Numbered from the stretch's first letter, positions 5,931-64,000 are shown. The stretch: 64,000 bases of DNA from an uncultured Bacteroidota bacterium (GCA_903901055.1 CAIUPO010000107.1:12707-76706), one strand, 5' to 3'. Numbers and translations are program-made. The notes: generated from the sequence alone by a model not told the origin.

Positions 5931-6485
5931 TTGTATCTTCGTAAAAAAATCCCAATGAAAATAAGGAAATACCAACCGCAACATTCAGCAATACAGGGTG
6001 AAGAAATTATTCTTGCTGGTTTTTGGCCAAGAGTGGGAGCTATAATGATAGATCTCGGAATTATAGGTATTCTACTTGATTGGGCAGTGCATTTGGTTAC
6101 CTATTTAGGGTTGAACCTTACACATGCATCCATGCACAATTTCCATGTGGTAGTTAAGGCGGAGGGAATGGACGAAAGCCTTCTAGACTTGATTGAATTG
6201 GGGTTCACACTAATTCCCATCTTATATTTTGCATTGTTCATGTATTTCACAAATGGCAAAACAATCGGGAAATATATTACACGCATCAGGGTTGTAGCAA
6301 TCTATCATCACCGGATTGGCCTCTGGCATTGTATCGAACGGGCACTGGGGTATGCCGCATCAACGCTCGAAGCCGGACTGGGCTTTCTTCAAATATTCTG
6401 GAACCCAAACCGCATGTGCCTGCACGACAGGATTGCGGAGACTATTGTGGTAAAGGAAAAAAAGAAGGAGAAAAAGAAAAATTAA
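5931..6485 (+). CDS. RDD-family membrane protein
   Basis: WPRVGAIMIDLGIIG ... LHDRIAETIVV matches the R...D...D pattern and topology of the RDD family. C-terminal Lys/Glu tail. Confidence 0.5.
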   Translation: MYLRKKIPMKIRKYQPQHSAIQGEEIILAGFWPRVGAIMIDLGIIGILLDWAVHLVTYLGLNLTHASMHNFHVVVKAEGMDESLLDLIELGFTLIPILYFALFMYFTNGKTIGKYITRIRVVAIYHHRIGLWHCIERALGYAASTLEAGLGFLQIFWNPNRMCLHDRIAETIVVKEKKKEKKKN

Positions 6486-57142: not shown

Positions 57143-58924
57143 TTGCATTATAACTTTGTGCTAATGTTATCTTCCACAATTATGCTCAAACGATTTTTGT
57201 TTTTTTGTTTTATACTATTAAGCCTCTCTTCCTTCTCCCAGCCTGTTATAGAGTATTGGGACAGTGCTGCCGGAATCAAAAAAAGCGAGATGAATTTTCG
57301 CGATGGTATGCAACATGGTTCGTTCAAACTATGGTATAAAAACGGACAACTCGACCAATGGGGGTTTTTCCATAAAGGAGATAAAGACAGCATCTGGAAA
57401 AACTATTACGAAAACGGAACTCTGCGCTCTATAAGGCATTATCACAGGGGAAGGGCTAACGGTACATTTGTATTTTTCTTTTCGAATGGAGATACTGATA
57501 TGGTGAACTCCTTTTCTGAAAATTTACGGGATGGCACATGGAAATCATGGGATACGAATGGGGCATTAACAAGTGTTACGCACTATATAAAAGATAAAAA
57601 AGAAGGTACATGGACCTATTATTATCTGAATGGGAAAATGAAAAACCAGGGGACCTTTGTAAAGAATAAAAAGGAAGGACATTTCACATCTTGGTATGAT
57701 AATGGAAACAAAGAAAGCGAAGGAGATTTTCAGAATGACAAAGAAACCGGTGAATGGCAGGAGTGGTATGAGAATGGCAAACCAAAAGATATTGTGAACC
57801 ATGCCGACAGCCTTATCTATATGAAGGAGTACTATGATGTAAAAGGCAAAAAAATTGTTTCGAATGGAAACGGCACTATTACGTTGTATTATCCCGGAGG
57901 AGTTACGCAGGCGACAGGCAAATATGTGAATGGGCTAAAGGAAGGTGTATGGAAATATTATTATTCCGATGGGGGCGAAGACAATGAAGCAACATATTCA
58001 GGAGGCAGGCAGAATGGCCCTTATACTTCATGGTTCAGGGGAAGTGCATTGAAAACAAAGGGAAGTTTTACCAATGGGGAAAAGGAAGGCCACTGGAACT
58101 GGTATTATGAAACAGGCAAAATAAAAATAAGCGGTGATTTACATAATAAAAAAAGAAACGGATTTTGGATATATTTCGAAACCACCGGCGACACCACTGA
58201 AAAAGGTTTTTTTAAAGACAATGAACGCGACAGTGTTTGGACATTTTACTACGACAGCAGCAGTGTAAAACTTAAAGAATGCCGCTATAAAAATGATATG
58301 CGCAATGGACTTTGCACTATTTGGTATAAAAATGGACAGATGAACGAACAAGGAAATTATCTGGATGATAAGGAAGAAGGCCTTTGGAAATCGTGGTACA
58401 GTAATGGGCAGGAAGAAGATGAAGGTTCTTACAAAGCGGCAAGCATGGAAGGCAATTGGCAGGGTTGGTATGAAAACGGAAAATTGAAATATGAAGGCAC
58501 ACGCACCAATAATTTAAAAGAGGGCCACTGGAAATATTATTACGAAAAAGGTGCTTTGCAGCGGGAAGGCAACTTCCATAAGGATTTACAAGACGGGCAT
58601 TGGGTGTTTTTGCAACCTACAGGCATAAAAATTCAGGAAGGCGATTATAAAGATGACAAACTGAGCGGACACTGGAAATTTTATTACGAAACAGGCGTAC
58701 TTATGCAGGAACAGACTATTAATGATGGGCTTCCTGCAGGCAAATGCACATCCTATTTCCCCGATGGAAAAGTTTCCAATACATCAGATTATTCCCTTGT
58801 GAAAGAAAAGAAAGGAACCCTACGCAGTGTTCCTGTGGGCGAATGGTTGTTCTATGATAAAAATGGAAACGTACAACGGAAAGTTAAGTACGTGAACGGT
58901 GTTCCGATTACGGAGCACAGATAA
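57143..58924 (+). CDS. MORN-repeat-variant (YwqK-like) repeat protein, secreted
   Basis: More than 15 tandem copies of G.W..(W/Y)YENGK.K.EG.(Y/F) (MORN_2 type). The likely signal-peptide start is near 57182. Confidence 0.65.
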   Translation: MHYNFVLMLSSTIMLKRFLFFCFILLSLSSFSQPVIEYWDSAAGIKKSEMNFRDGMQHGSFKLWYKNGQLDQWGFFHKGDKDSIWKNYYENGTLRSIRHYHRGRANGTFVFFFSNGDTDMVNSFSENLRDGTWKSWDTNGALTSVTHYIKDKKEGTWTYYYLNGKMKNQGTFVKNKKEGHFTSWYDNGNKESEGDFQNDKETGEWQEWYENGKPKDIVNHADSLIYMKEYYDVKGKKIVSNGNGTITLYYPGGVTQATGKYVNGLKEGVWKYYYSDGGEDNEATYSGGRQNGPYTSWFRGSALKTKGSFTNGEKEGHWNWYYETGKIKISGDLHNKKRNGFWIYFETTGDTTEKGFFKDNERDSVWTFYYDSSSVKLKECRYKNDMRNGLCTIWYKNGQMNEQGNYLDDKEEGLWKSWYSNGQEEDEGSYKAASMEGNWQGWYENGKLKYEGTRTNNLKEGHWKYYYEKGALQREGNFHKDLQDGHWVFLQPTGIKIQEGDYKDDKLSGHWKFYYETGVLMQEQTINDGLPAGKCTSYFPDGKVSNTSDYSLVKEKKGTLRSVPVGEWLFYDKNGNVQRKVKYVNGVPITEHR

Positions 58925-58927
58925 TTT

Positions 58928-60064
58928 CTACTGGTTAGTATGCTTAGCAGCTTCCTGCAAGGTGGTTCTTTTTCCTTTGTAGTAAGGAACAATAAATCCG
59001 CCTGTTAAACCCTTAGCCCTTAAAGCATCCATGCGGGTTTTAGCTGAACTTAAATTGGGGTAATTGCCAATCATTACTCTCGTAGCATTTCCAGCGGCTT
59101 CCAAAATAGGTTCCTCGGTAATGCCATAAGGTTTTAATACTTCGCTTGCTTTTGATTTATCACCAACTGCAGCAATTTGAATGTGGTAAACCAGGTCTCC
59201 GGTTGATTGGGTAGTGGATGGTGCAGGAGTAGCTACCGGGGCAGGTGCTGTTTTTGCCGGTGGAGTTGCTACAACAGCAGGCGCGGTAGTTTGAGGTGTG
59301 GAAGTTGTTGCTACAGGAGCCGGGGCCATTTTTGGTTCTTCTTTCACAACCGGTTGTTGCTGAACCACTGCAGGAGCAGCTTCAGCCTTTTTAGGGGCTG
59401 GAGCTACACTTGCTGTTGTAGTTGTAGAAGTTGTTTTTACTGATGATGTTTTAACAGGAGGAGCGGGAGTGTAAGACTCATCTGAACCTCCGCCCGGATA
59501 TTCACCCATGATTATATAATACAAATCTTCCAGGGTGTTTTTTGGTCCGCTATCGCCGGATGATTGGCTTGTCTGGGTTGGTTTGTAGGTGCCCTGAGCA
59601 GTTACTTTACCTGAGAATTTAATACTAAATGAGGATGACTCAATTGTGTAAGGATGGTTACTGTAGGTAAATGATCCTGTAATGGTCTGGCTTTCGGCAG
59701 TAGCTTTTGTAGGCCTTAGTGAATAGGAAACAACTATTTCCCTGTCTTCGCTCATGTTAGCCCAGGTGAAGGTAGCTTTGCCGTCTTTACTGCTGAATGA
59801 AGCACCGCTTGTTTTCATAGAAGAAGCCATTAAATCGCTTGAAAAGGTTTCCTCAACTTTGCCGGGGCCTTTAAATGCGTCTTTATTTATGGTTATGGTT
59901 ACAACCACAAATTCATTTCCATCCGAAGCAGTCTGCACTGCAGAAACACTTCGTGTGGCACTTGTGTTGGATTTTGCTTTTTTAGCTTGTGCATAGGCCG
60001 AAGTGAATACACTGCAAAAAAGCAAACCCAATGCAATTGGAAGGAGTGTAATTTTCTTTTTCAT
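58928..60064 (-). CDS. secreted protein with Pro/Ala/Thr-rich linker and C-terminal SPOR (peptidoglycan-binding) domain
   Basis: Signal peptide, PAPVATP/TAPA low-complexity linker, and C-terminal YHIQIAAVGDKSKASEVLKP...RVMIGNYPNLSSAKTRMDALRAKGL matching the SPOR fold pattern. Confidence 0.6.
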   Translation of the reverse strand: MKKKITLLPIALGLLFCSVFTSAYAQAKKAKSNTSATRSVSAVQTASDGNEFVVVTITINKDAFKGPGKVEETFSSDLMASSMKTSGASFSSKDGKATFTWANMSEDREIVVSYSLRPTKATAESQTITGSFTYSNHPYTIESSSFSIKFSGKVTAQGTYKPTQTSQSSGDSGPKNTLEDLYYIIMGEYPGGGSDESYTPAPPVKTSSVKTTSTTTTASVAPAPKKAEAAPAVVQQQPVVKEEPKMAPAPVATTSTPQTTAPAVVATPPAKTAPAPVATPAPSTTQSTGDLVYHIQIAAVGDKSKASEVLKPYGITEEPILEAAGNATRVMIGNYPNLSSAKTRMDALRAKGLTGGFIVPYYKGKRTTLQEAAKHTNQ

Positions 60065-60458
60065 TGGTTTTATGTTATTTGGAGGGCAAAAATAGGATTT
60101 TTTTCGAAAAAATGATAAATTCTTTTTGGGAGCGTAGGGGCTGATGTAATAGCTTTTGGTAAGCGATGATATGAGTTAAATCATGCTCAAACCTAACAGT
60201 TCTCACAAAATTACCCTTGCTTCGACCCTAGTTTTGTATTGTATAAAACCTACATTTTATGAAAGAAAACATGGGATTAGCAGACAAAATTATCAGGATA
60301 CTGGTTGCAGTTATTATTGCAACACTTTATTCAATGCACTTATCCCTACCTCAAACAGGTCAAATTTCTCCGCAGGAAAAAGGTATGGAATAACGGTTAC
60401 ATCAGGCACTAAAGGGCATTATATGAGCATAAATTTTGGAGTTATGCCCATATAGTTT

Positions 60459-61196
60459 TCATGCTGCGTTTGCCAAAGTTTTTTTTCTCATTGATTCCCC
60501 TTTAAGCTCCATTCGGTGCGACTGATGGATTAACCTATCCATTATGGCATCCGCCACTGTTTGCTCCCCGATAATATCATACCACTTACTCACAGGAACC
60601 TGAGATGTTATAAGGGTCGAGCCTTTCCCATGCCTGTCCTCAATTATTTCCATTAATATGGAACGGCTTTGCGCATCAAATGGTTGCAATCCGAAATCAT
60701 CAAGTATCAAAAGGTTCTGTCTCTCTATTTTAGCTATCTCCCTCGCATAAGAACTCTCACCCTTAATCATTTTAAGCTTCCCCATAAGTTTGGCTGTATT
60801 ATGGTAGATAACTTTATGTCCGAGGCTGCAAGCTTGATGACCGATAGCCGAAGCAACATAACTTTTACCTATGCCAGTGCTACCTGTAATGAGGATATTT
60901 TCATGTTTATCAATGAAATTGCAATCACCAAAACGCATGAGTTGGTTCTTATCAAGATTCCGGTCATTGCTGTAATTAAGTTCTTCCAATGAAGCCTTGT
61001 AGCGAAACTTGGCGTTTTTAATTAGCCTATCTATGCTGCGATTGTGCCTGTCGTCCCACTCTGATTCGATAAGGGTGGACACCATTTCATCAGTGGTGTA
61101 ATCTTCCATTTTACCGGATTCTATGCTCGTTTTAAAAGCTCTGTGCATACCGATGAGCTTCATTTTTTTCATTTTTTCTAACGTTTTTTCATTCAT
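60459..61196 (-). CDS. istB: IS21-family transposition helper ATPase IstB
   Basis: Walker A GSTGIGKS, LILDDFGL, and IstB-type C-terminus. Confidence 0.8.
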   Translation of the reverse strand: MNEKTLEKMKKMKLIGMHRAFKTSIESGKMEDYTTDEMVSTLIESEWDDRHNRSIDRLIKNAKFRYKASLEELNYSNDRNLDKNQLMRFGDCNFIDKHENILITGSTGIGKSYVASAIGHQACSLGHKVIYHNTAKLMGKLKMIKGESSYAREIAKIERQNLLILDDFGLQPFDAQSRSILMEIIEDRHGKGSTLITSQVPVSKWYDIIGEQTVADAIMDRLIHQSHRMELKGESMRKKTLANAA

Positions 61197-61227
61197 GATT
61201 TATTGATTTTTAAGAACATTGATACTT

Positions 61228-61650
61228 TCATTTATAATAGTCTTTGCCACGTATATTGGGATGTTCAGGCATCTTGGGATGCTCGCTTTCATCGTCAAGC
61301 ATATCTAATCCTTGCTCCAATATCTTTTTTATAATTCTATAACTATGGATGCTGCAACTTGCAGCAAGCTGACACGCTTTGGTGAGGCGTTCATTACCTA
61401 CCTTTTTAGCGAACCCAAGAACCCCTGCACATATTCTGTACGCTTGGTCAGGGTGGCGTTGGCTCTTAAGTATTTCACCGATGTACGCATTTACATCCGG
61501 GTGAATCTCTTCAGCGAGCGACAAAAAGCGGTCTGAAGCCAACTCAATAGTATAGCGATGGGCGGGAAATAAATGCTCAGTAACTGTTGTATATGTAAAT
61601 TGAACTCTGTCTCGCTTATGAAAAGCAATGCATTCGTAATGATAAAACAT
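61228..61650 (-). pseudogene. istA: C-terminal fragment (about 140 aa) of IS21-family transposase IstA; N-terminal HTH/DDE portion missing
   Basis: Matches the region of IstA just upstream of istB (typical 30-nt spacing to istB) but lacks the catalytic N-terminal two-thirds. Confidence 0.6.
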
Positions 61651-62394
61651 TTCAATTCACTTTGCTTAGGTGCTTTTTTTGGGGTGCTTCGTAGTAAAAT
61701 ATTTGCTACAAGAACTAAAACAGGTCTTCATTATTTCTTTTATGGATTTTCAATAATAGTTTTTCTTGCATCAATAACCTCTGGCTTTATCTATTGGAGC
61801 GATTTCAGCTTATTTGGCATTATTGGCTCAGTACTTGCCATTTTTTCAAGCATTGCGTTGTTCATCTTTACAAAGAGATATTTGCTTGTAAAAGATGTTT
61901 ATCATACTTCAGAGTTAGACCACATCGTAAATAGTTTTACTGCCAATGGTGATAAAAACGAAATAAAAATGTTTGGCGGGGATTTGAATTTTTTTGGGAA
62001 TACTCCTTCAGATATGGATAATAATGCTCAGTATCATTATTTACGTTCCCTTGAATTCAATAAGATTTCGATATTATGCGAAGAACCCAATGATAATACC
62101 AAGAAAATTAGATATGGGAAAATCTTACATGATATGCCTGAAACTGAGTTGCGGTTTTACAATCCGAAAGAAGCCGATTTGAAGGTAAGGGGAAGAATGA
62201 TAAAAGTTCAAGGTTCGGATAAATTATTAATGTATACAAGAGTAAAATCAAAACATTATCAGGCATTAGAAACTGATACAGGGAATTCAGGCGGTGCATT
62301 ATATAATAATATCTGGAATTTAGTATGGTCGTTGGCAGTTAAGCCAACTCCTCCACAACTTCAAGATTATAAAAACCTATTCTCAAATAGATAA
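61573..62394 (+). CDS. hypothetical membrane-anchored protein with HtrA-like GNSGGAL serine-protease-type motif near C-terminus
   Basis: The true start is probably downstream of 61650 (GTG near 61684), since the first ~26 codons overlap the IS remnant. Two TM helices, then a soluble domain containing TDTGNSGGALYNN. Confidence 0.35.
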   Translation: MLSNCCICKLNSVSLMKSNAFVMIKHFNSLCLGAFFGVLRSKIFATRTKTGLHYFFYGFSIIVFLASITSGFIYWSDFSLFGIIGSVLAIFSSIALFIFTKRYLLVKDVYHTSELDHIVNSFTANGDKNEIKMFGGDLNFFGNTPSDMDNNAQYHYLRSLEFNKISILCEEPNDNTKKIRYGKILHDMPETELRFYNPKEADLKVRGRMIKVQGSDKLLMYTRVKSKHYQALETDTGNSGGALYNNIWNLVWSLAVKPTPPQLQDYKNLFSNR

Positions 62395-62399
62395 TACGT

Positions 62400-62759
62400 A
62401 TGAAAACATTGGTCATAAATTCACCGCTCTTCCGGTATAAGAATCCTCTCTACGATGAAGATTCACTCACTCCCATTGGTTTGGGGCTGATTGCCACAGC
62501 TTTAAAGGCTAATAATATTAACGTTTCACTTTTAGATGCAGTTGCTTGTAATACTCCGTTACAGGAGCTCATCTCTATGGTCTGTGCAGAAATGCCTGAC
62601 TTTATCTGCATAAATGTTTTTACTACAAACCTTGAATTGGTAAAAGAATTTGTTGAGTCTATAAATTATAGTACTCATTTTATAGTTATTACAAGCCATA
62701 TAACAACTTGGGCTCATTTGCACCCAAATCCCAGTAATACTATCGTTTGCATATCCTAA
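62400..62759 (+). pseudogene. N-terminal fragment of a B12-binding-domain (class B) radical-SAM-type enzyme, truncated after about 110 codons
   Basis: MKTLVINSPLF...DSLTPIGLGLIATALKANNINVSLLDA resembles the MK.LLINPP...PPLGLAYLAA.L...G.EV..D start of B12-binding radical SAM proteins. The frame ends where the convergent gene 62740.. begins. Confidence 0.35.
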
Positions 62760-64000
62760 AGATGTGCTGTGGCTCGTCATGATAACAGTATTTTTCACAC
62801 AAATCTGTTGCTTTTCTTCTATCTTTCTTGATACTATTAATTGCAAAGTCAATCCAATTGTTAAGTCGAACAATTAGTCCATTGATGTTTTCTAGAAGTA
62901 GAAACGGATTCTTTGCAACTTTTTTTTCCTCAATGAATTTTTGCTTATTAATTTCCGATTCAATTAATACTTTTAATTTGCGTGAATAGGAATCAAGAAA
63001 ATAGCCTATATCCTTCAATTCATGGGTAAATGTTGAAATAGTCATCCCTAAACTTGCCAAAACCCTTAACATTCTTATTTCATCTTCCTTTTGCTCTATT
63101 TCATCGATAAATCCTTTAGTTGCTTTGGCATAAGTAGTTTTCCTTTTGCTGGCTTTTGATTTTGATTTCTTTTTAGATTGCTTTTTTAGGTCTTCCTCCG
63201 CTTGCTTCTCTGCTTCCTCTTTTGCTAAAGCAATGTCATATTCCCTATCATACACTACTTTCATAGGGCTTGATATATAGTGCCTATCTTTTTCAATTAA
63301 ATTAATCAGAAGCAGGAGTAATTCCTTAAATGCACGAAATGTTCTATTATCTACAAGGCCTTCACGGTTGGTCGTGTCTTTTAATTCGGGATTATCAAGC
63401 CTTGAAATCGTTACATATCCATATATCTGATTCGGGCCAACTCTCCAACCTAAACCCTCAGGTTGTCCAGAACCAAAAGTACTTGCCGACGCTCTTGAAC
63501 CTAAATCTAACCAATCCCATGTTGTGCTATTAAATTCTCCATAAGGTCTAACCCTAAAATCGTCCCTAAAGATTTTGACGCCTCCAAAGCGATCAAGCCA
63601 TTCCCTTCTTTTACTTGAATCGAACGCCCTGTAAGAGTAAGTTTTTGAATCGGTTTCTTTTACACTTCGTTTTAAGAAATAAAAATTAAAACTAAAAGCT
63701 CCAATACTATCAATCACTTCTTTTGTTAATTGATCTTTAATTCCTGGCCATATTTCTTCAATGGAAGTTCTTAAAATAAAATCTCCCTTTTTTAATGTTG
63801 CCAAATCATACGGTGCTTTAGACATATCTTTAGGCTTTCGCTCCTTAAAAACGTCCGGATTAATGGATTTCCAGTTAAACTCCCTACGGTCAATTTTTAT
63901 TTCTACAGCACCATTATGTTCAATATTTGCTTGTAGTTTATAATCATAATCATCCCAGAATAAAGACTGTATTTTACCAAATCGTTGTTCGTATGAAGTA
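62740..64000 (-). CDS. hypothetical protein, C-terminal part (ORF continues past the window end)
   Basis: The frame upstream of the listed ATG (63825) stays open to position 64000 (...QRFGKIQSLFWDDYDYKLQANIEHNGAVEIKIDRREFNWK...). It contains GGVKIFRDDFRVRPYGE and an H-box-like ISTFTHELKD. Confidence 0.4.
   Translation of the reverse strand, partial: TSYEQRFGKIQSLFWDDYDYKLQANIEHNGAVEIKIDRREFNWKSINPDVFKERKPKDMSKAPYDLATLKKGDFILRTSIEEIWPGIKDQLTKEVIDSIGAFSFNFYFLKRSVKETDSKTYSYRAFDSSKRREWLDRFGGVKIFRDDFRVRPYGEFNSTTWDWLDLGSRASASTFGSGQPEGLGWRVGPNQIYGYVTISRLDNPELKDTTNREGLVDNRTFRAFKELLLLLINLIEKDRHYISSPMKVVYDREYDIALAKEEAEKQAEEDLKKQSKKKSKSKASKRKTTYAKATKGFIDEIEQKEDEIRMLRVLASLGMTISTFTHELKDIGYFLDSYSRKLKVLIESEINKQKFIEEKKVAKNPFLLLENINGLIVRLNNWIDFAINSIKKDRRKATDLCEKYCYHDEPQHIFRICKR

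What the first reader, a model, noticed from the sequence alone, without database searches (positions are those of the whole stretch)
60200..64000. Scarred accessory junction: IS21 remnant, membrane protein with HtrA-like GNSGGAL motif, truncated B12-radical-SAM gene fragment and a large unknown gene running off the window
Only the last ~140 codons of istA survive, together with an intact istB, so the IS is no longer mobile. Immediately beyond the break an AT-rich gene encodes a 2-TM protein whose C-terminal domain carries TDTGNSGGALYNN, the catalytic-serine motif style of HtrA/S1C proteases. This arrangement recalls membrane-tethered protease effectors of abortive-infection or defence modules. 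Next comes about 110 codons of a B12-binding radical-SAM N-terminus that stops exactly where a convergent gene of more than 420 codons ends. That convergent gene has a GHKL/H-box-like segment and a Lys-rich coiled region, and continues past position 64000. The mosaic of broken genes and unknown proteins is typical of a defence or accessory island border and is the part of the window most likely to hide an uncharacterised system. It is incomplete here.
Basis: partly seen in the sequence, partly recalled or inferred. Interest (0 to 1): 0.6.

Follow-up and report, generated by a model that had tools for sequence, protein, structure and literature searches.

The report
Wreck of two defence gene cassettes
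This stretch is the broken cargo of a small mobile island beside a tRNA-Gln gene: pieces of an insertion sequence and of two multi-gene, probably anti-phage, cassettes (one resembling the recently described Ambrosia system, one undescribed); it contains no protease and no complete system.

Summary
A metagenome contig identical to the window bar one base extends it by 8.7 kb. The "large unknown gene" is 643 codons and is followed by a 99-codon gene, a tyrosine integrase and tRNA-Gln, so this is a tRNA-integrated island. Four of the five genes at the junction are damaged.

- **istA** keeps only codons 366-509, with a sharp break at 61655/61656.
- **The membrane protein** is native only from codon 14. 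Its start is IS-derived.
- **The B12 radical-SAM gene** keeps 96 of about 460 codons.
- **The 643-codon gene** is a GHKL/H-box histidine-kinase-like protein cut at residue 624 of about 780.

Intact relatives show two conserved cassettes:

- **Cassette A:** RmrA-like HTH-peptidase, DUF3368, this membrane protein, B12 radical SAM, family-4-like UDG. I found it described in none of the libraries or papers searched.
- **Cassette B:** kinase, receiver-like protein, HNH, DNA methylase, the same parts as Ambrosia.

The HtrA idea fails. The serine is 83% conserved, no histidine is conserved, and the confident model resembles PLD-fold domains. The locus is a wreck. Its main value is as a pointer to cassette A.

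The parts
60259..60393 (+). 44-codon YgaP-like/DUF2892 small membrane ORF on the chromosomal or left flank, about 60 bp from the IS end
   Evidence: Weak precomputed PF11127 hit. ORF listed. Not studied further.
60452..61655 (-). IS21-family remnant of about 1.2 kb: right end, intact istB, and the last 144 codons of istA. The left 1.1 kb, with the DDE domain and left inverted repeat, is missing.
   Evidence: 95% identity over 1177 bp to L036 1350-2526, ending sharply at 61655. The right end at about 60452 is inferred from where the two copies diverge just after the istB stop. Terminal repeats were not identified.
60459..61196 (-). istB, intact helper ATPase (245 aa)
   Evidence: Pfam IstB_IS21, E 2.2e-64, profile 2-234/238.
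61228..61656 (-). istA 3' fragment, corresponding to residues 366-509 of a 509-aa IstA
   Evidence: tblastn of Mucilaginibacter IstA: 48% identity, query 366-509 on window 61656-61231. Plasmid hits are annotated as IS21 family transposase.
61655..61657 (.). Breakpoint 1: IS-derived DNA abuts cassette-A DNA
   Evidence: IS similarity ends at 61655. Homology to the cassette-A membrane protein begins at 61657, reference residue 15. Genome relatives match from query residue 14.
61618..62394 (+). Membrane protein with a C-terminal PLD-like domain, third gene of cassette A. The ORF is chimeric: codons 1-13 are IS-derived and the native sequence starts at 61657.
   Evidence: 126 homologue clusters of 255-266 aa with no Pfam domain. 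AF2 model pLDDT 91. Foldseek best hits are TrmBL2, Tdp1 and PPK, all at weak E-values. All invariant family residues are retained.
62272..62310 (+). TDTGNSGGALYNN motif. The family consensus is TDTANSNGALYNN, a loop at the N-terminus of helix 224-239.
   Evidence: Column counts in 120 sequences: Ser 83%, G222 10%, G225 4%, G226 100%. Secondary structure.
62400..62687 (+). First 96 codons of the cassette-A B12-binding radical-SAM gene. The ORF reads on to 62759 through unrelated sequence.
   Evidence: 68% identity to residues 1-96 of the 466-aa L010 protein. Relatives continue ...THFIVGGLST, whereas the window continues ...THFIVITSHI.
62688..62799 (.). Breakpoint 2: 112 bp of filler with no detectable relation to either cassette
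   Evidence: blastn and tblastx against all fetched loci match only its edges, 62669-62687 (rSAM) and 62800-62829 (kinase).
62740..64000 (-). 3'-truncated AbrB-like GHKL/histidine-kinase-like gene. The ORF has 643 codons and starts at window-equivalent 64671. Residues 1-624 are homologous to relatives of about 780 aa. The last 19 codons (62743-62799) are junction read-through.
   Evidence: L002 extension. HATPase_c_3, E 4e-18, at residues 25-131. 58% identity to P0002 (778 aa), ending at residue 624. Nearly all of the 120 listed relatives carry an extra C-terminal HATPase_c domain.
63010..63036 (-). H-box (STFTHELKD) of the dimerisation/phosphotransfer helix
   Evidence: Coordinates. Weak NCBIfam histidine-kinase hit on residues 524-554. 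Conserved in P0002.
63139..63186 (-). Lys-rich linker (KKQSKKKSKSKASKRK) preceding the H-box helix

Best explanation
Window 60.4-64.0 kb, continuing to about 66.5 kb, is the decayed cargo of a small island integrated beside tRNA-Gln.

The island carries a Bacteroidota-type tyrosine integrase, a 99-codon gene of unknown function, and the remains of two different multi-gene conflict cassettes lying tail to tail, followed by a dead IS21.

Cassette B, transcribed away from the integrase, was an Ambrosia-like module that combines a two-component system with restriction-modification parts: GHKL/histidine-kinase-like protein, receiver-like protein, HNH nuclease, DNA methyltransferase. Only kinase residues 1-624 remain.

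Cassette A, convergent to B, was a five-gene module: RmrA-like HTH/M78 peptidase, DUF3368 PIN-like protein, membrane PLD-like protein, B12 radical-SAM enzyme, family-4-like UDG. What remains is the membrane protein, with a new IS-derived 5' end, and 96 codons of the radical-SAM gene.

Two rearrangements explain the layout. The first removed everything between radical-SAM codon 96 and kinase codon 624, leaving 112 bp of filler. The second joined the middle of istA to codon 14 of the membrane-protein gene and removed the two upstream cassette-A genes and the left half of the IS.

Shown: the homologies, the breakpoints, the conserved gene orders elsewhere, and the absence of the missing genes from 72.8 kb around the site. 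Inferred: that both cassettes were once complete here, the order of events, and that neither remnant still works as its parent system did.
For: Extension and island. L002 equals the window with 1 mismatch in 3777 bp. It carries the integrase (Arm-DNA-bind_5, SAM_5, Phage_integrase) and tRNA-Gln, followed by yggS, IF2 and NusA.

Kinase truncation. Homologues are mostly 770-860 aa with HATPase_c_3 and a C-terminal HATPase_c. The alignment to P0002 stops at residue 624.

Cassette B order. Kinase, then a roughly 210-aa protein with sub-threshold Response_reg hits (E 3e-5 to 3e-2), then HNH, then methyltransferase. This is seen in L005-L009, on a Bacteroides finegoldii plasmid beside an integrase, and on a Salipiger plasmid. 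The same components make up Ambrosia, which was validated experimentally.

Cassette A order. Conserved in L010-L015 and complete, in order, in 12 of the 14 closely related genome loci long enough to show it. The first gene hits PADLOC RmrA at 1e-60. The last hits UDG family 4.

Breakpoints.

Missing genes. No M78, DUF3368, UDG, receiver-like, HNH or methyltransferase gene is found anywhere in the window plus L002.

Reality of the scar. Four fetched contigs from different samples are identical to it, bar one base, and a fifth place shows the same gene order.
Against: No intact ancestor or empty site of this particular locus was recovered, so the history is reconstructed from distant relatives (50-68% identity).

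No direct repeat of the tRNA 3' end marks the far island border.

The remnants show no frameshifts or internal stops. The membrane protein keeps every invariant family residue. The truncations are therefore either recent or the pieces are still under selection.

Natural kinase-like proteins without the C-terminal HATPase_c exist in the related HEF_HK family (11 of 222; PMC8011034).

The 112-bp filler is unexplained.

The link to Ambrosia rests on domain composition only. No Ambrosia sequence was available to compare, and no XRE gene was seen next to the relatives.
Confidence: 0.8

Rival explanations
1. One reading: the membrane protein is a membrane-tethered HtrA/S1C-like serine protease, acting as effector of an abortive-infection or defence module.
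For: The string GNSGGAL is identical to the DegP/HtrA active-site motif (my own knowledge of DegP). It is present at 62272-62310.
Against: Only 12 of 120 homologues have G at the first position and 5 of 120 at the fourth. Ser is replaced in 17%. No conserved His exists. A profile search of the PDB sequences finds nothing at E <= 10. The confident model is an alpha/beta domain whose best matches are PLD-fold proteins, and only about 30 residues follow the 'Ser'. Pfam, NCBIfam and PADLOC give no hit.
Confidence: 0.02
2. The surviving genes still work. The membrane PLD-like protein, expressed from an IS-derived start, and/or the kinase-like protein without its C-terminal ATPase, have been retained as orphan effector or sensor proteins, possibly together with the 99-aa protein.
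For: Both ORFs are intact, without frameshifts. The membrane protein retains all invariant residues. In-frame ATGs are supplied at 61618 and 61639. HEF_HK proteins lacking the C-terminal HATPase_c occur naturally. The 99-aa gene overlaps the kinase start by 20 bp.
Against: The partners that are syntenic in nearly all relatives are absent from 72.8 kb. The 643-aa form is a singleton cluster. The 99-aa family never sits beside a kinase, receiver, HNH or methyltransferase gene in 34 other loci. No Bacteroidota-type -7 promoter motif lies upstream of the membrane-protein gene. The first 13 residues of the N-terminal helix are replaced.
Confidence: 0.12
3. Cassette A is not a conflict system but an ordinary biosynthetic or repair operon, for example membrane-lipid or cofactor methylation by the B12 radical-SAM enzyme, or DNA repair by radical SAM plus UDG. 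On this view the window merely holds a broken metabolic gene.
For: The best NCBIfam neighbours of the full-length enzyme are HpnJ, BchE, PhpK and ladderane-lipid radical-SAM proteins, all far below their cut-offs. A membrane protein is encoded next to it. Pairing of UDG-like proteins with radical-SAM proteins is known from putative DNA-repair pairs (TIGR03914/TIGR03916; my own knowledge).
Against: The cassette is headed by an RmrA-like HTH/M78 protein and a PIN-like DUF3368 protein. It sits beside CBASS genes, Fic genes, transposases and integrases. It is patchily distributed: only 19 loci among 185,579 species genomes, found with one peptide pattern. Here it lies on an integrase island. No second copy is present in the window.
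Confidence: 0.15
4. The junctions are assembly chimeras that join unrelated contigs.
For: Metagenome assemblies can break or mis-join at IS elements. Some contigs that carry yggS end about 430 bp downstream of it.
Against: L001, L003 and L004 (Logan and MEGAHIT assemblies of different runs) are 100% identical across 61456-64000, and L002 spans 60224 onward with one mismatch. A further place (ERZ1426622, no DNA held) lists the same genes in the same order.
Confidence: 0.02

Closest known systems
Ambrosia anti-phage system (AbrR XRE, AbrA N6-methylase, AbrB histidine kinase/HSP90-like ATPase, AbrC receiver, AbrD HNH; bioRxiv 10.1101/2025.09.30.679545)
   Same: Relatives of the window's 643-aa gene sit in a cassette of kinase/HATPase, receiver-like protein, HNH nuclease and N6 or N4/N6 DNA methylase, which is the same set of enzymatic parts.
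   Different: Ambrosia is reported from Gammaproteobacteria with an XRE regulator and the methylase upstream. Here the order is kinase, receiver-like, HNH, methylase, in Bacteroidota, Bacillota and Alphaproteobacteria, and no XRE gene was seen. The receiver is only a sub-threshold Pfam match. Sequence relatedness to AbrB was not testable. In the window only the kinase N-terminal 624 residues survive.
HEF_HK / Response_reg_2 two-component-like pairs linked to R-M systems and paraMORC ATPases (Bellieny-Rabelo et al. 2021, PMC8011034)
   Same: Same predominant architecture of HATPase_c_3, DHp with H-box, then HATPase_c. Soluble protein, adjacent divergent receiver, and R-M neighbours including HNH and N6/N4 methylases.
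   Different: Neither PF19191 nor PF19192 is matched by the window protein, its relatives or their partners. This is therefore a separate sequence family or a branch too divergent for those models.
RosmerTA (RmrT/RmrA) and CapH/CapP-type HTH plus M78 regulators of defence operons
   Same: The first gene of intact cassette A matches PADLOC RmrA models (E 1e-60), and CapP and CapH more weakly. RmrA is the Zn-peptidase antitoxin of RosmerTA.
   Different: No RmrT model matches. The gene heads a five-gene operon rather than a pair. It is absent from the window.
PLD-superfamily domains without catalytic HKD motifs (e.g. the C-terminal domain of TrmB-family proteins, TrmBL2 5bpd), and Tdp1
   Same: Best structural matches of the soluble domain. 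The GNSGG loop occupies what looks like the position of the 'GSxN' part of an HKD motif (my inference).
   Different: The matches are weak (best E 3.6e-3, TM 0.3-0.4). HxK is replaced by the invariant R191-G-R193. The protein is membrane-anchored and has no sequence-level relative in Pfam or the PDB.
HtrA/DegP (S1C) serine proteases
   Same: Only the heptapeptide GNSGGAL.
   Different: Fold, length, lack of the catalytic triad, and lack of motif conservation.
IS21-family insertion sequences (istA and istB)
   Same: Intact IstB. The IstA C-terminal 144 residues are 48% identical to annotated IstA. 95% DNA identity to another copy.
   Different: The HTH and DDE catalytic part of IstA and the left end are deleted, so it cannot transpose on its own.
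tRNA-integrated genomic islands with Bacteroidota-type tyrosine integrases (Arm-DNA-bind_5 / Phage_int_SAM_5 class)
   Same: The integrase lies directly beside the 3' end of tRNA-Gln, the cargo is accessory, and housekeeping genes lie beyond.
   Different: No flanking direct repeat of the tRNA end was found. The far border is probably lost.

Membership tests
HtrA/S1C serine protease | Catalytic Ser in a conserved GNSGG-type motif | tested here: not met
   Ser 83%, first Gly 10%, fourth-position Gly 4% among 120 homologues.
HtrA/S1C serine protease | Conserved His and Asp upstream of the Ser (catalytic triad) | tested here: not met
   No His column above 54%.
HtrA/S1C serine protease | Trypsin-like double beta-barrel fold, or sequence similarity to solved proteases | tested here: not met
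   The model is an alpha/beta domain with PLD-fold matches. The family profile finds 0 PDB sequences at E <= 10.
IS21 insertion sequence (functional element) | Full-length IstA transposase with HTH and DDE domain | tested here: not met
   Only residues 366-509 of about 509 are present.
IS21 insertion sequence (functional element) | IstB helper ATPase | tested here: met
   PF01695, E 2e-64, near full length.
IS21 insertion sequence (functional element) | Two terminal inverted repeats | tested here: inconclusive
   The left end is deleted at 61655. The right end is placed only approximately, by divergence from L036.
Ambrosia-like two-component / R-M defence cassette | Histidine kinase / HSP90-like ATPase component | tested here: inconclusive
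   The N-terminal HATPase_c_3 and the H-box are present. The C-terminal kinase ATPase domain is deleted.
Ambrosia-like two-component / R-M defence cassette | Adjacent receiver (REC) protein | tested here: not met
   Absent from the window plus L002. Present in relatives as a roughly 210-aa protein with sub-threshold PF00072 hits.
Ambrosia-like two-component / R-M defence cassette | HNH nuclease and N6 DNA methyltransferase in the same cluster | tested here: not met
   Absent here. Present in relatives L005-L009, L072 and L073.
Ambrosia-like two-component / R-M defence cassette | Sequence homology to AbrB-AbrD, and the XRE regulator AbrR | not testable with these tools
   No Ambrosia sequences were available. 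No XRE gene was seen adjacent in the relatives examined.
Pfam HEF_HK (PF19191) / Response_reg_2 (PF19192) | Match to the Pfam models | tested here: not met
   No hit at E <= 0.1 to 1 for the window protein, a full-length relative or four partner proteins. Neither family appears among the precomputed Pfam domains of the 120 listed relatives.
B12-binding (class B) radical-SAM enzyme | N-terminal B12-binding domain | tested here: inconclusive
   PF02310 scores 31.8 bits against a cut-off of 32.1, on residues 23-88. The fragment is clearly homologous (68%) to the N-terminus of full-length members.
B12-binding (class B) radical-SAM enzyme | Radical-SAM core domain | tested here: not met
   The gene ends after codon 96 of about 460. 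The Radical_SAM domain of relatives lies at residues 189-355.
PLD superfamily | PLD fold | tested here: inconclusive
PLD superfamily | HxK(x)4D catalytic motif | tested here: not met
   No conserved His. The invariant R191-G-R193 stands in its place.
tRNA-integrated genomic island | Tyrosine integrase adjacent to a tRNA gene | tested here: met
   Integrase at L002 4823-6007 and tRNA-Gln at 6175-6249, with the tRNA 3' end facing the integrase.
tRNA-integrated genomic island | Direct repeat of the tRNA 3' end at the distal border | tested here: not met
   No match of 14 nt or more anywhere in the window.

The most novel reading that the evidence does not exclude
The intact relatives of the membrane-protein and radical-SAM remnant define an unrecognised conflict system, cassette A. 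It consists of an RmrA-like HTH/M78 switch, a PIN-like DUF3368 protein, a membrane-anchored non-catalytic PLD-like protein, a B12-dependent radical-SAM enzyme and a family-4/5-like UDG.

The most novel reading is that the radical-SAM enzyme and the glycosylase act on DNA or nucleotides (a modification-and-excision logic, or production of a modified nucleotide). The membrane PLD-like protein would then be the ligand-sensing effector.

A linked possibility is that the window's copy survives as a domesticated orphan, expressed from the IS-derived start.
Probability: 0.25. Interest if true: 0.65.

Novelty: new member of a known kind. Interest (0 to 1): 0.33.

Why it matters
For this genome the result is a correction to annotation. 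The locus holds pseudogene remnants on a tRNA-Gln island. It does not hold a protease-based defence module, and the 'unknown large gene' belongs to the kinase family of Ambrosia-like cassettes that combine a two-component system with restriction-modification parts.

It also shows how such islands decay. The nuclease and the methylase were lost together, and an IS fragment supplied a new start codon to a neighbouring gene.

The wider value is indirect. The wreck led to a tightly syntenic five-gene cassette in Bacteroidota and Ignavibacteria. Its membrane PLD-like protein has no Pfam, NCBIfam or PADLOC model. More distant homologues of that protein in Bacillota again sit near radical-SAM genes. 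A B12-dependent radical-SAM enzyme paired with a UDG in a mobile, regulator-headed operon would be worth testing for defence, but an intact copy must be used, not this one.

Tried and rejected
- **HtrA-like protease.** Rejected.
- **Direct repeats of the tRNA-Gln region as att sites.** None found in the window. Repeats within L002 were only short chance-level matches.
- **Empty site or intact ancestor via exact look-ups of yggS and IstB.** Only the same scarred locus, or short contigs without DNA, were returned.
- **Origin of the 112-bp filler.** No match to either cassette or to the window.
- **The 99-aa gene.**
  - No Pfam, NCBIfam or PADLOC hit.
  - It belongs to a small conserved family of 43 clusters.
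  - The AF2 model has pLDDT 75 and no informative fold match.
  - None was found in viral contigs.
  - In 34 metagenome loci the neighbours vary and never include cassette B genes.
  - It is unrelated to the genes upstream of the kinase in L005 and L072.
- **PADLOC on full-length members.** Only RmrA, a PtuB-like HNH and type II methyltransferase models hit strongly. PDC-M51A hits the radical-SAM protein at 4e-15. Nothing hits the membrane protein, the UDG, the receiver-like protein or the kinase core.
- **Literature searches for cassette A.** Four term sets found nothing relevant.
- **Rfam.** Only the tRNA.
- **Sigma-70 promoter and terminator scan.** At chance level. No Bacteroidota -7 motif lies upstream of the membrane-protein gene.

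Full report
**What is in the window.**

- istB (60459-61196, minus strand) is a full-length IstB_IS21 protein, E 2e-64.
- The 140-codon ORF upstream of it has no Pfam or NCBIfam match.
  - It is 48% identical to residues 366-509 of a 509-aa annotated IS21 transposase.
  - The whole remnant is 95% identical over 1177 bp to another copy, L036. That similarity stops abruptly at window 61655.
- The ORF at 61573-62394 carries TDTGNSGGALYNN and has two strongly hydrophobic segments.
- The 119-codon ORF at 62400-62759 has a B12-binding N-terminus.
- A convergent ORF overlaps it by 20 bp and runs off the window.

**Extending the sequence.**

An exact-protein look-up returned contigs from several samples with the same arrangement. 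L002 matches window 60224-64000 with one mismatch and continues for 8.7 kb. Beyond position 64000 lie, in order:

- the rest of the large gene, which has 643 codons in all;
- a 99-codon gene that overlaps its start;
- a tyrosine integrase (Arm-DNA-bind_5, Phage_int_SAM_5, Phage_integrase);
- tRNA-Gln, with its 3' end facing the integrase;
- the housekeeping genes yggS, infB and nusA.

This is therefore the cargo of a small tRNA-integrated island. No repeat of the tRNA end was found in the window, so the far border is probably lost.

**The large gene is itself a fragment.**

Its N-terminus is a HATPase_c_3 (GHKL) domain, E 4e-18. That domain lies outside the window. The H-box STFTHELKD (63010-63036) and the Lys-rich linker (63139-63186) lie inside it.

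Among 4148 homologues, nearly all of the 120 best listed are 770-860 aa long. They carry a second, C-terminal HATPase_c or HATPase_c_5 domain, which is the catalytic domain of a histidine kinase. The alignment to the closest full-length relative (58% identity) ends at residue 624. The last 19 codons of the window ORF are junction read-through.

In relatives the gene heads a conserved cassette:

- kinase;
- a protein of about 210 aa with sub-threshold receiver-domain hits;
- a PtuB-like HNH nuclease;
- an N6 or N4/N6 DNA methyltransferase.

The cassette is seen in Bacteroidota and Orenia metagenome and genome contigs. It is also on a Bacteroides finegoldii plasmid, where it sits beside an integrase, and on a Salipiger plasmid.

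This composition matches two published descriptions.

- The first is the HEF_HK/Response_reg_2 pairs linked to R-M systems (PMC8011034). However, the Pfam models PF19191 and PF19192 are not matched here.
- The second is the experimentally validated Ambrosia system of Pseudomonas, made of XRE, methylase, kinase/HSP90-like ATPase, receiver and HNH.

None of the partner genes is present in the 72.8 kb available around this locus.

**The membrane protein and the radical-SAM fragment belong to a second cassette.**

The membrane protein has about 126 homologue clusters of 255-266 aa. All are unannotated and have no Pfam domain. A profile search of 1.84 billion cluster representatives finds only 116.

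In every informative context it is the third gene of a five-gene operon:

| Position | Gene | Evidence |
|---|---|---|
| 1 | HTH_3 + Peptidase_M78 protein | PADLOC RmrA, E 1e-60 |
| 2 | DUF3368/PIN-like protein | precomputed PF11848 on record; own scan of the L010 copy only E 0.02 |
| 3 | membrane protein | no model in Pfam, NCBIfam or PADLOC |
| 4 | B12-binding radical-SAM enzyme, about 460 aa | PF02310 and PF04055 |
| 5 | UDG-superfamily protein, about 190 aa | nearest family 4; motifs GLSA and HHPSY |

Of the 15 closely related genome loci from Bacteroidota and Ignavibacteria, one ends inside the membrane-protein gene. Twelve of the other 14 hold all five genes in this order. One of the remaining two lacks the first two genes and one is rearranged.

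Neighbours include CBASS genes, Fic genes, transposases and integrases. More distant homologues of the soluble domain in Bacillota again lie near radical-SAM genes of another class.

In the window, homology to the membrane protein starts exactly at 61657, one base after the IS similarity ends. The first 13 codons and the start codon are therefore IS-derived. The radical-SAM homology (68% identity) ends after codon 96, at 62687. Relatives continue with ...THFIVGGLST, whereas the window continues with ...THFIVITSHI.

Between 62688 and 62799 lie 112 bp that match nothing.

**The protease idea.**

In 120 homologues the family consensus is TDTANSNGALYNN.

- The Ser is 83% conserved.
- The two glycines that make the string look like HtrA are 10% and 4% conserved.
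- No histidine column exceeds 54%.
- A family profile finds no PDB sequence even at E <= 10.

The AlphaFold model is confident (pLDDT 91, pTM 0.79). It shows three N-terminal helices followed by an alpha/beta domain. Its best PDB matches are TrmBL2, Tdp1 and a polyphosphate kinase, which are all PLD-fold proteins, although the scores are weak.

I read the domain as a non-catalytic PLD-like module. The invariant R191-G-R193 stands where HxK would be, and the 'GNSGG' loop corresponds to the GSxN part of an HKD motif. This last step is inference.

**How the locus most likely arose.**

An integrase island at tRNA-Gln carried cassette B, transcribed away from the integrase, and cassette A, convergent to it. 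An IS21 copy lay at or near the head of cassette A.

One rearrangement removed everything from radical-SAM codon 97 to kinase codon 625. This took out the UDG gene, the methyltransferase, the HNH nuclease and the receiver-like gene together.

Another rearrangement joined istA codon 366 to membrane-protein codon 14. This removed the RmrA-like and DUF3368 genes and the left half of the IS.

The breakpoints and the missing genes are shown. The original completeness and the order of events are inferred.

The scar is identical, bar one base, in four fetched contigs from different samples, and a fifth place has the same gene order. It is therefore real and fixed in this population.

The remnants have no internal stops, and the membrane protein keeps all invariant residues. 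Either the damage is recent or some residual function is retained. I give the latter about 0.12.

**Comparison with known systems and novelty.**

The junction itself is ordinary island decay. Cassette B is a member, or a close analogue, of a kind already described in silico in 2021 and validated in 2025.

I did not find cassette A in Pfam, NCBIfam, PADLOC 2.0 or the searchable literature. Its individual parts belong to known superfamilies, but the combination appears undescribed.

Because the window holds only one chimeric gene and a 96-codon stub of it, I score the finding low to moderate. The cassette itself is a lead to pursue with an intact copy.

**What remains unexplained.**

- The 112-bp filler.
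- The function of the conserved 99-aa protein.
- The exact right end of the IS.
- The far border of the island.
- Whether the kinase family is truly homologous to AbrB.

Noticed in passing
L010 5404-9716; L012 5411-9735; L014 5390-9190; L017-L031: A tightly syntenic five-gene cassette: RmrA-like HTH/M78, DUF3368, membrane PLD-like protein, B12 radical SAM, family-4-like UDG. It occurs in Bacteroidota and Ignavibacteria MAGs. In L014 it lies directly downstream of a patatin, a DncV-like cyclase (CBASS) and a further gene. It appears undescribed.
   Followed up: partly
L033 5144-8855; L035 7698-11296: Bacillota homologues of the PLD-like domain, 22-24% identical and with a Cys-rich insert, also lie near radical-SAM genes of another type. 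I read these as SPASM-like, and two neighbouring L035 ORFs as thymidylate-kinase-like and EEP-nuclease-like, from their sequences alone, not from a domain scan. In L033 a putative transposase ORF separates the two genes.
   Followed up: partly
L017-L030, UDG genes (e.g. L017 10111-10674): The cassette-A UDG proteins keep the N-terminal CxxC and the HHPSY motif of family 4. They have G-L-S-A where family 4 has GE(A/G)PG, which is closer to the family 5 pattern.
   Followed up: partly
L002 4429-4728 (window-equivalent 64652-64951): A conserved 99-aa protein family (43 clusters, 54-82% identity, invariant motifs such as RHDRNEWN and GYPVVRGG). It has no domain or fold match and its genomic neighbours vary. 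Here it overlaps the kinase start by 20 bp.
   Followed up: yes
L002 6331-6431 (window-equivalent 66554-66654): A 25-nt inverted repeat, 96% complementary with a 51-nt spacer, lies between tRNA-Gln and yggS. Its role is unknown; it could be a terminator or a REP-like element.
   Followed up: no
L036 788-2635: The closest other copy of this IS21 (95% identity) abuts a type I R-M hsdM gene. Its IstA is called at only 329 aa, so that copy may be damaged as well.
   Followed up: no
window 60259-60393: A 44-codon YgaP-like/DUF2892 ORF, shorter than I would expect for that family, with a terminator-like hairpin inside it at 60304-60323. It sits about 60 bp from the IS end.
   Followed up: no
window 57143-60064: A 593-aa MORN-repeat protein (10 repeats) is followed by a convergent 378-aa SPOR-domain protein with a long Ala/Pro/Thr-rich low-complexity linker. 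These look like ordinary chromosomal flank genes.
   Followed up: no
contigs 0cdBoDBb and pZfGQB_O (no DNA held): Several contigs carrying the identical yggS end 350-430 bp downstream of it, about where the integrase gene begins. This may reflect strain heterogeneity at the island.
   Followed up: no
L072 2637-10103 (Bacteroides finegoldii plasmid NZ_OY725905.1): An intact cassette B (kinase, 209-aa protein, HNH, N-6 methylase) sits next to a distantly related integrase (24% identity) and a SocA/MqsR toxin-antitoxin pair. This layout parallels the presumed ancestral state of the window's island.
   Followed up: partly
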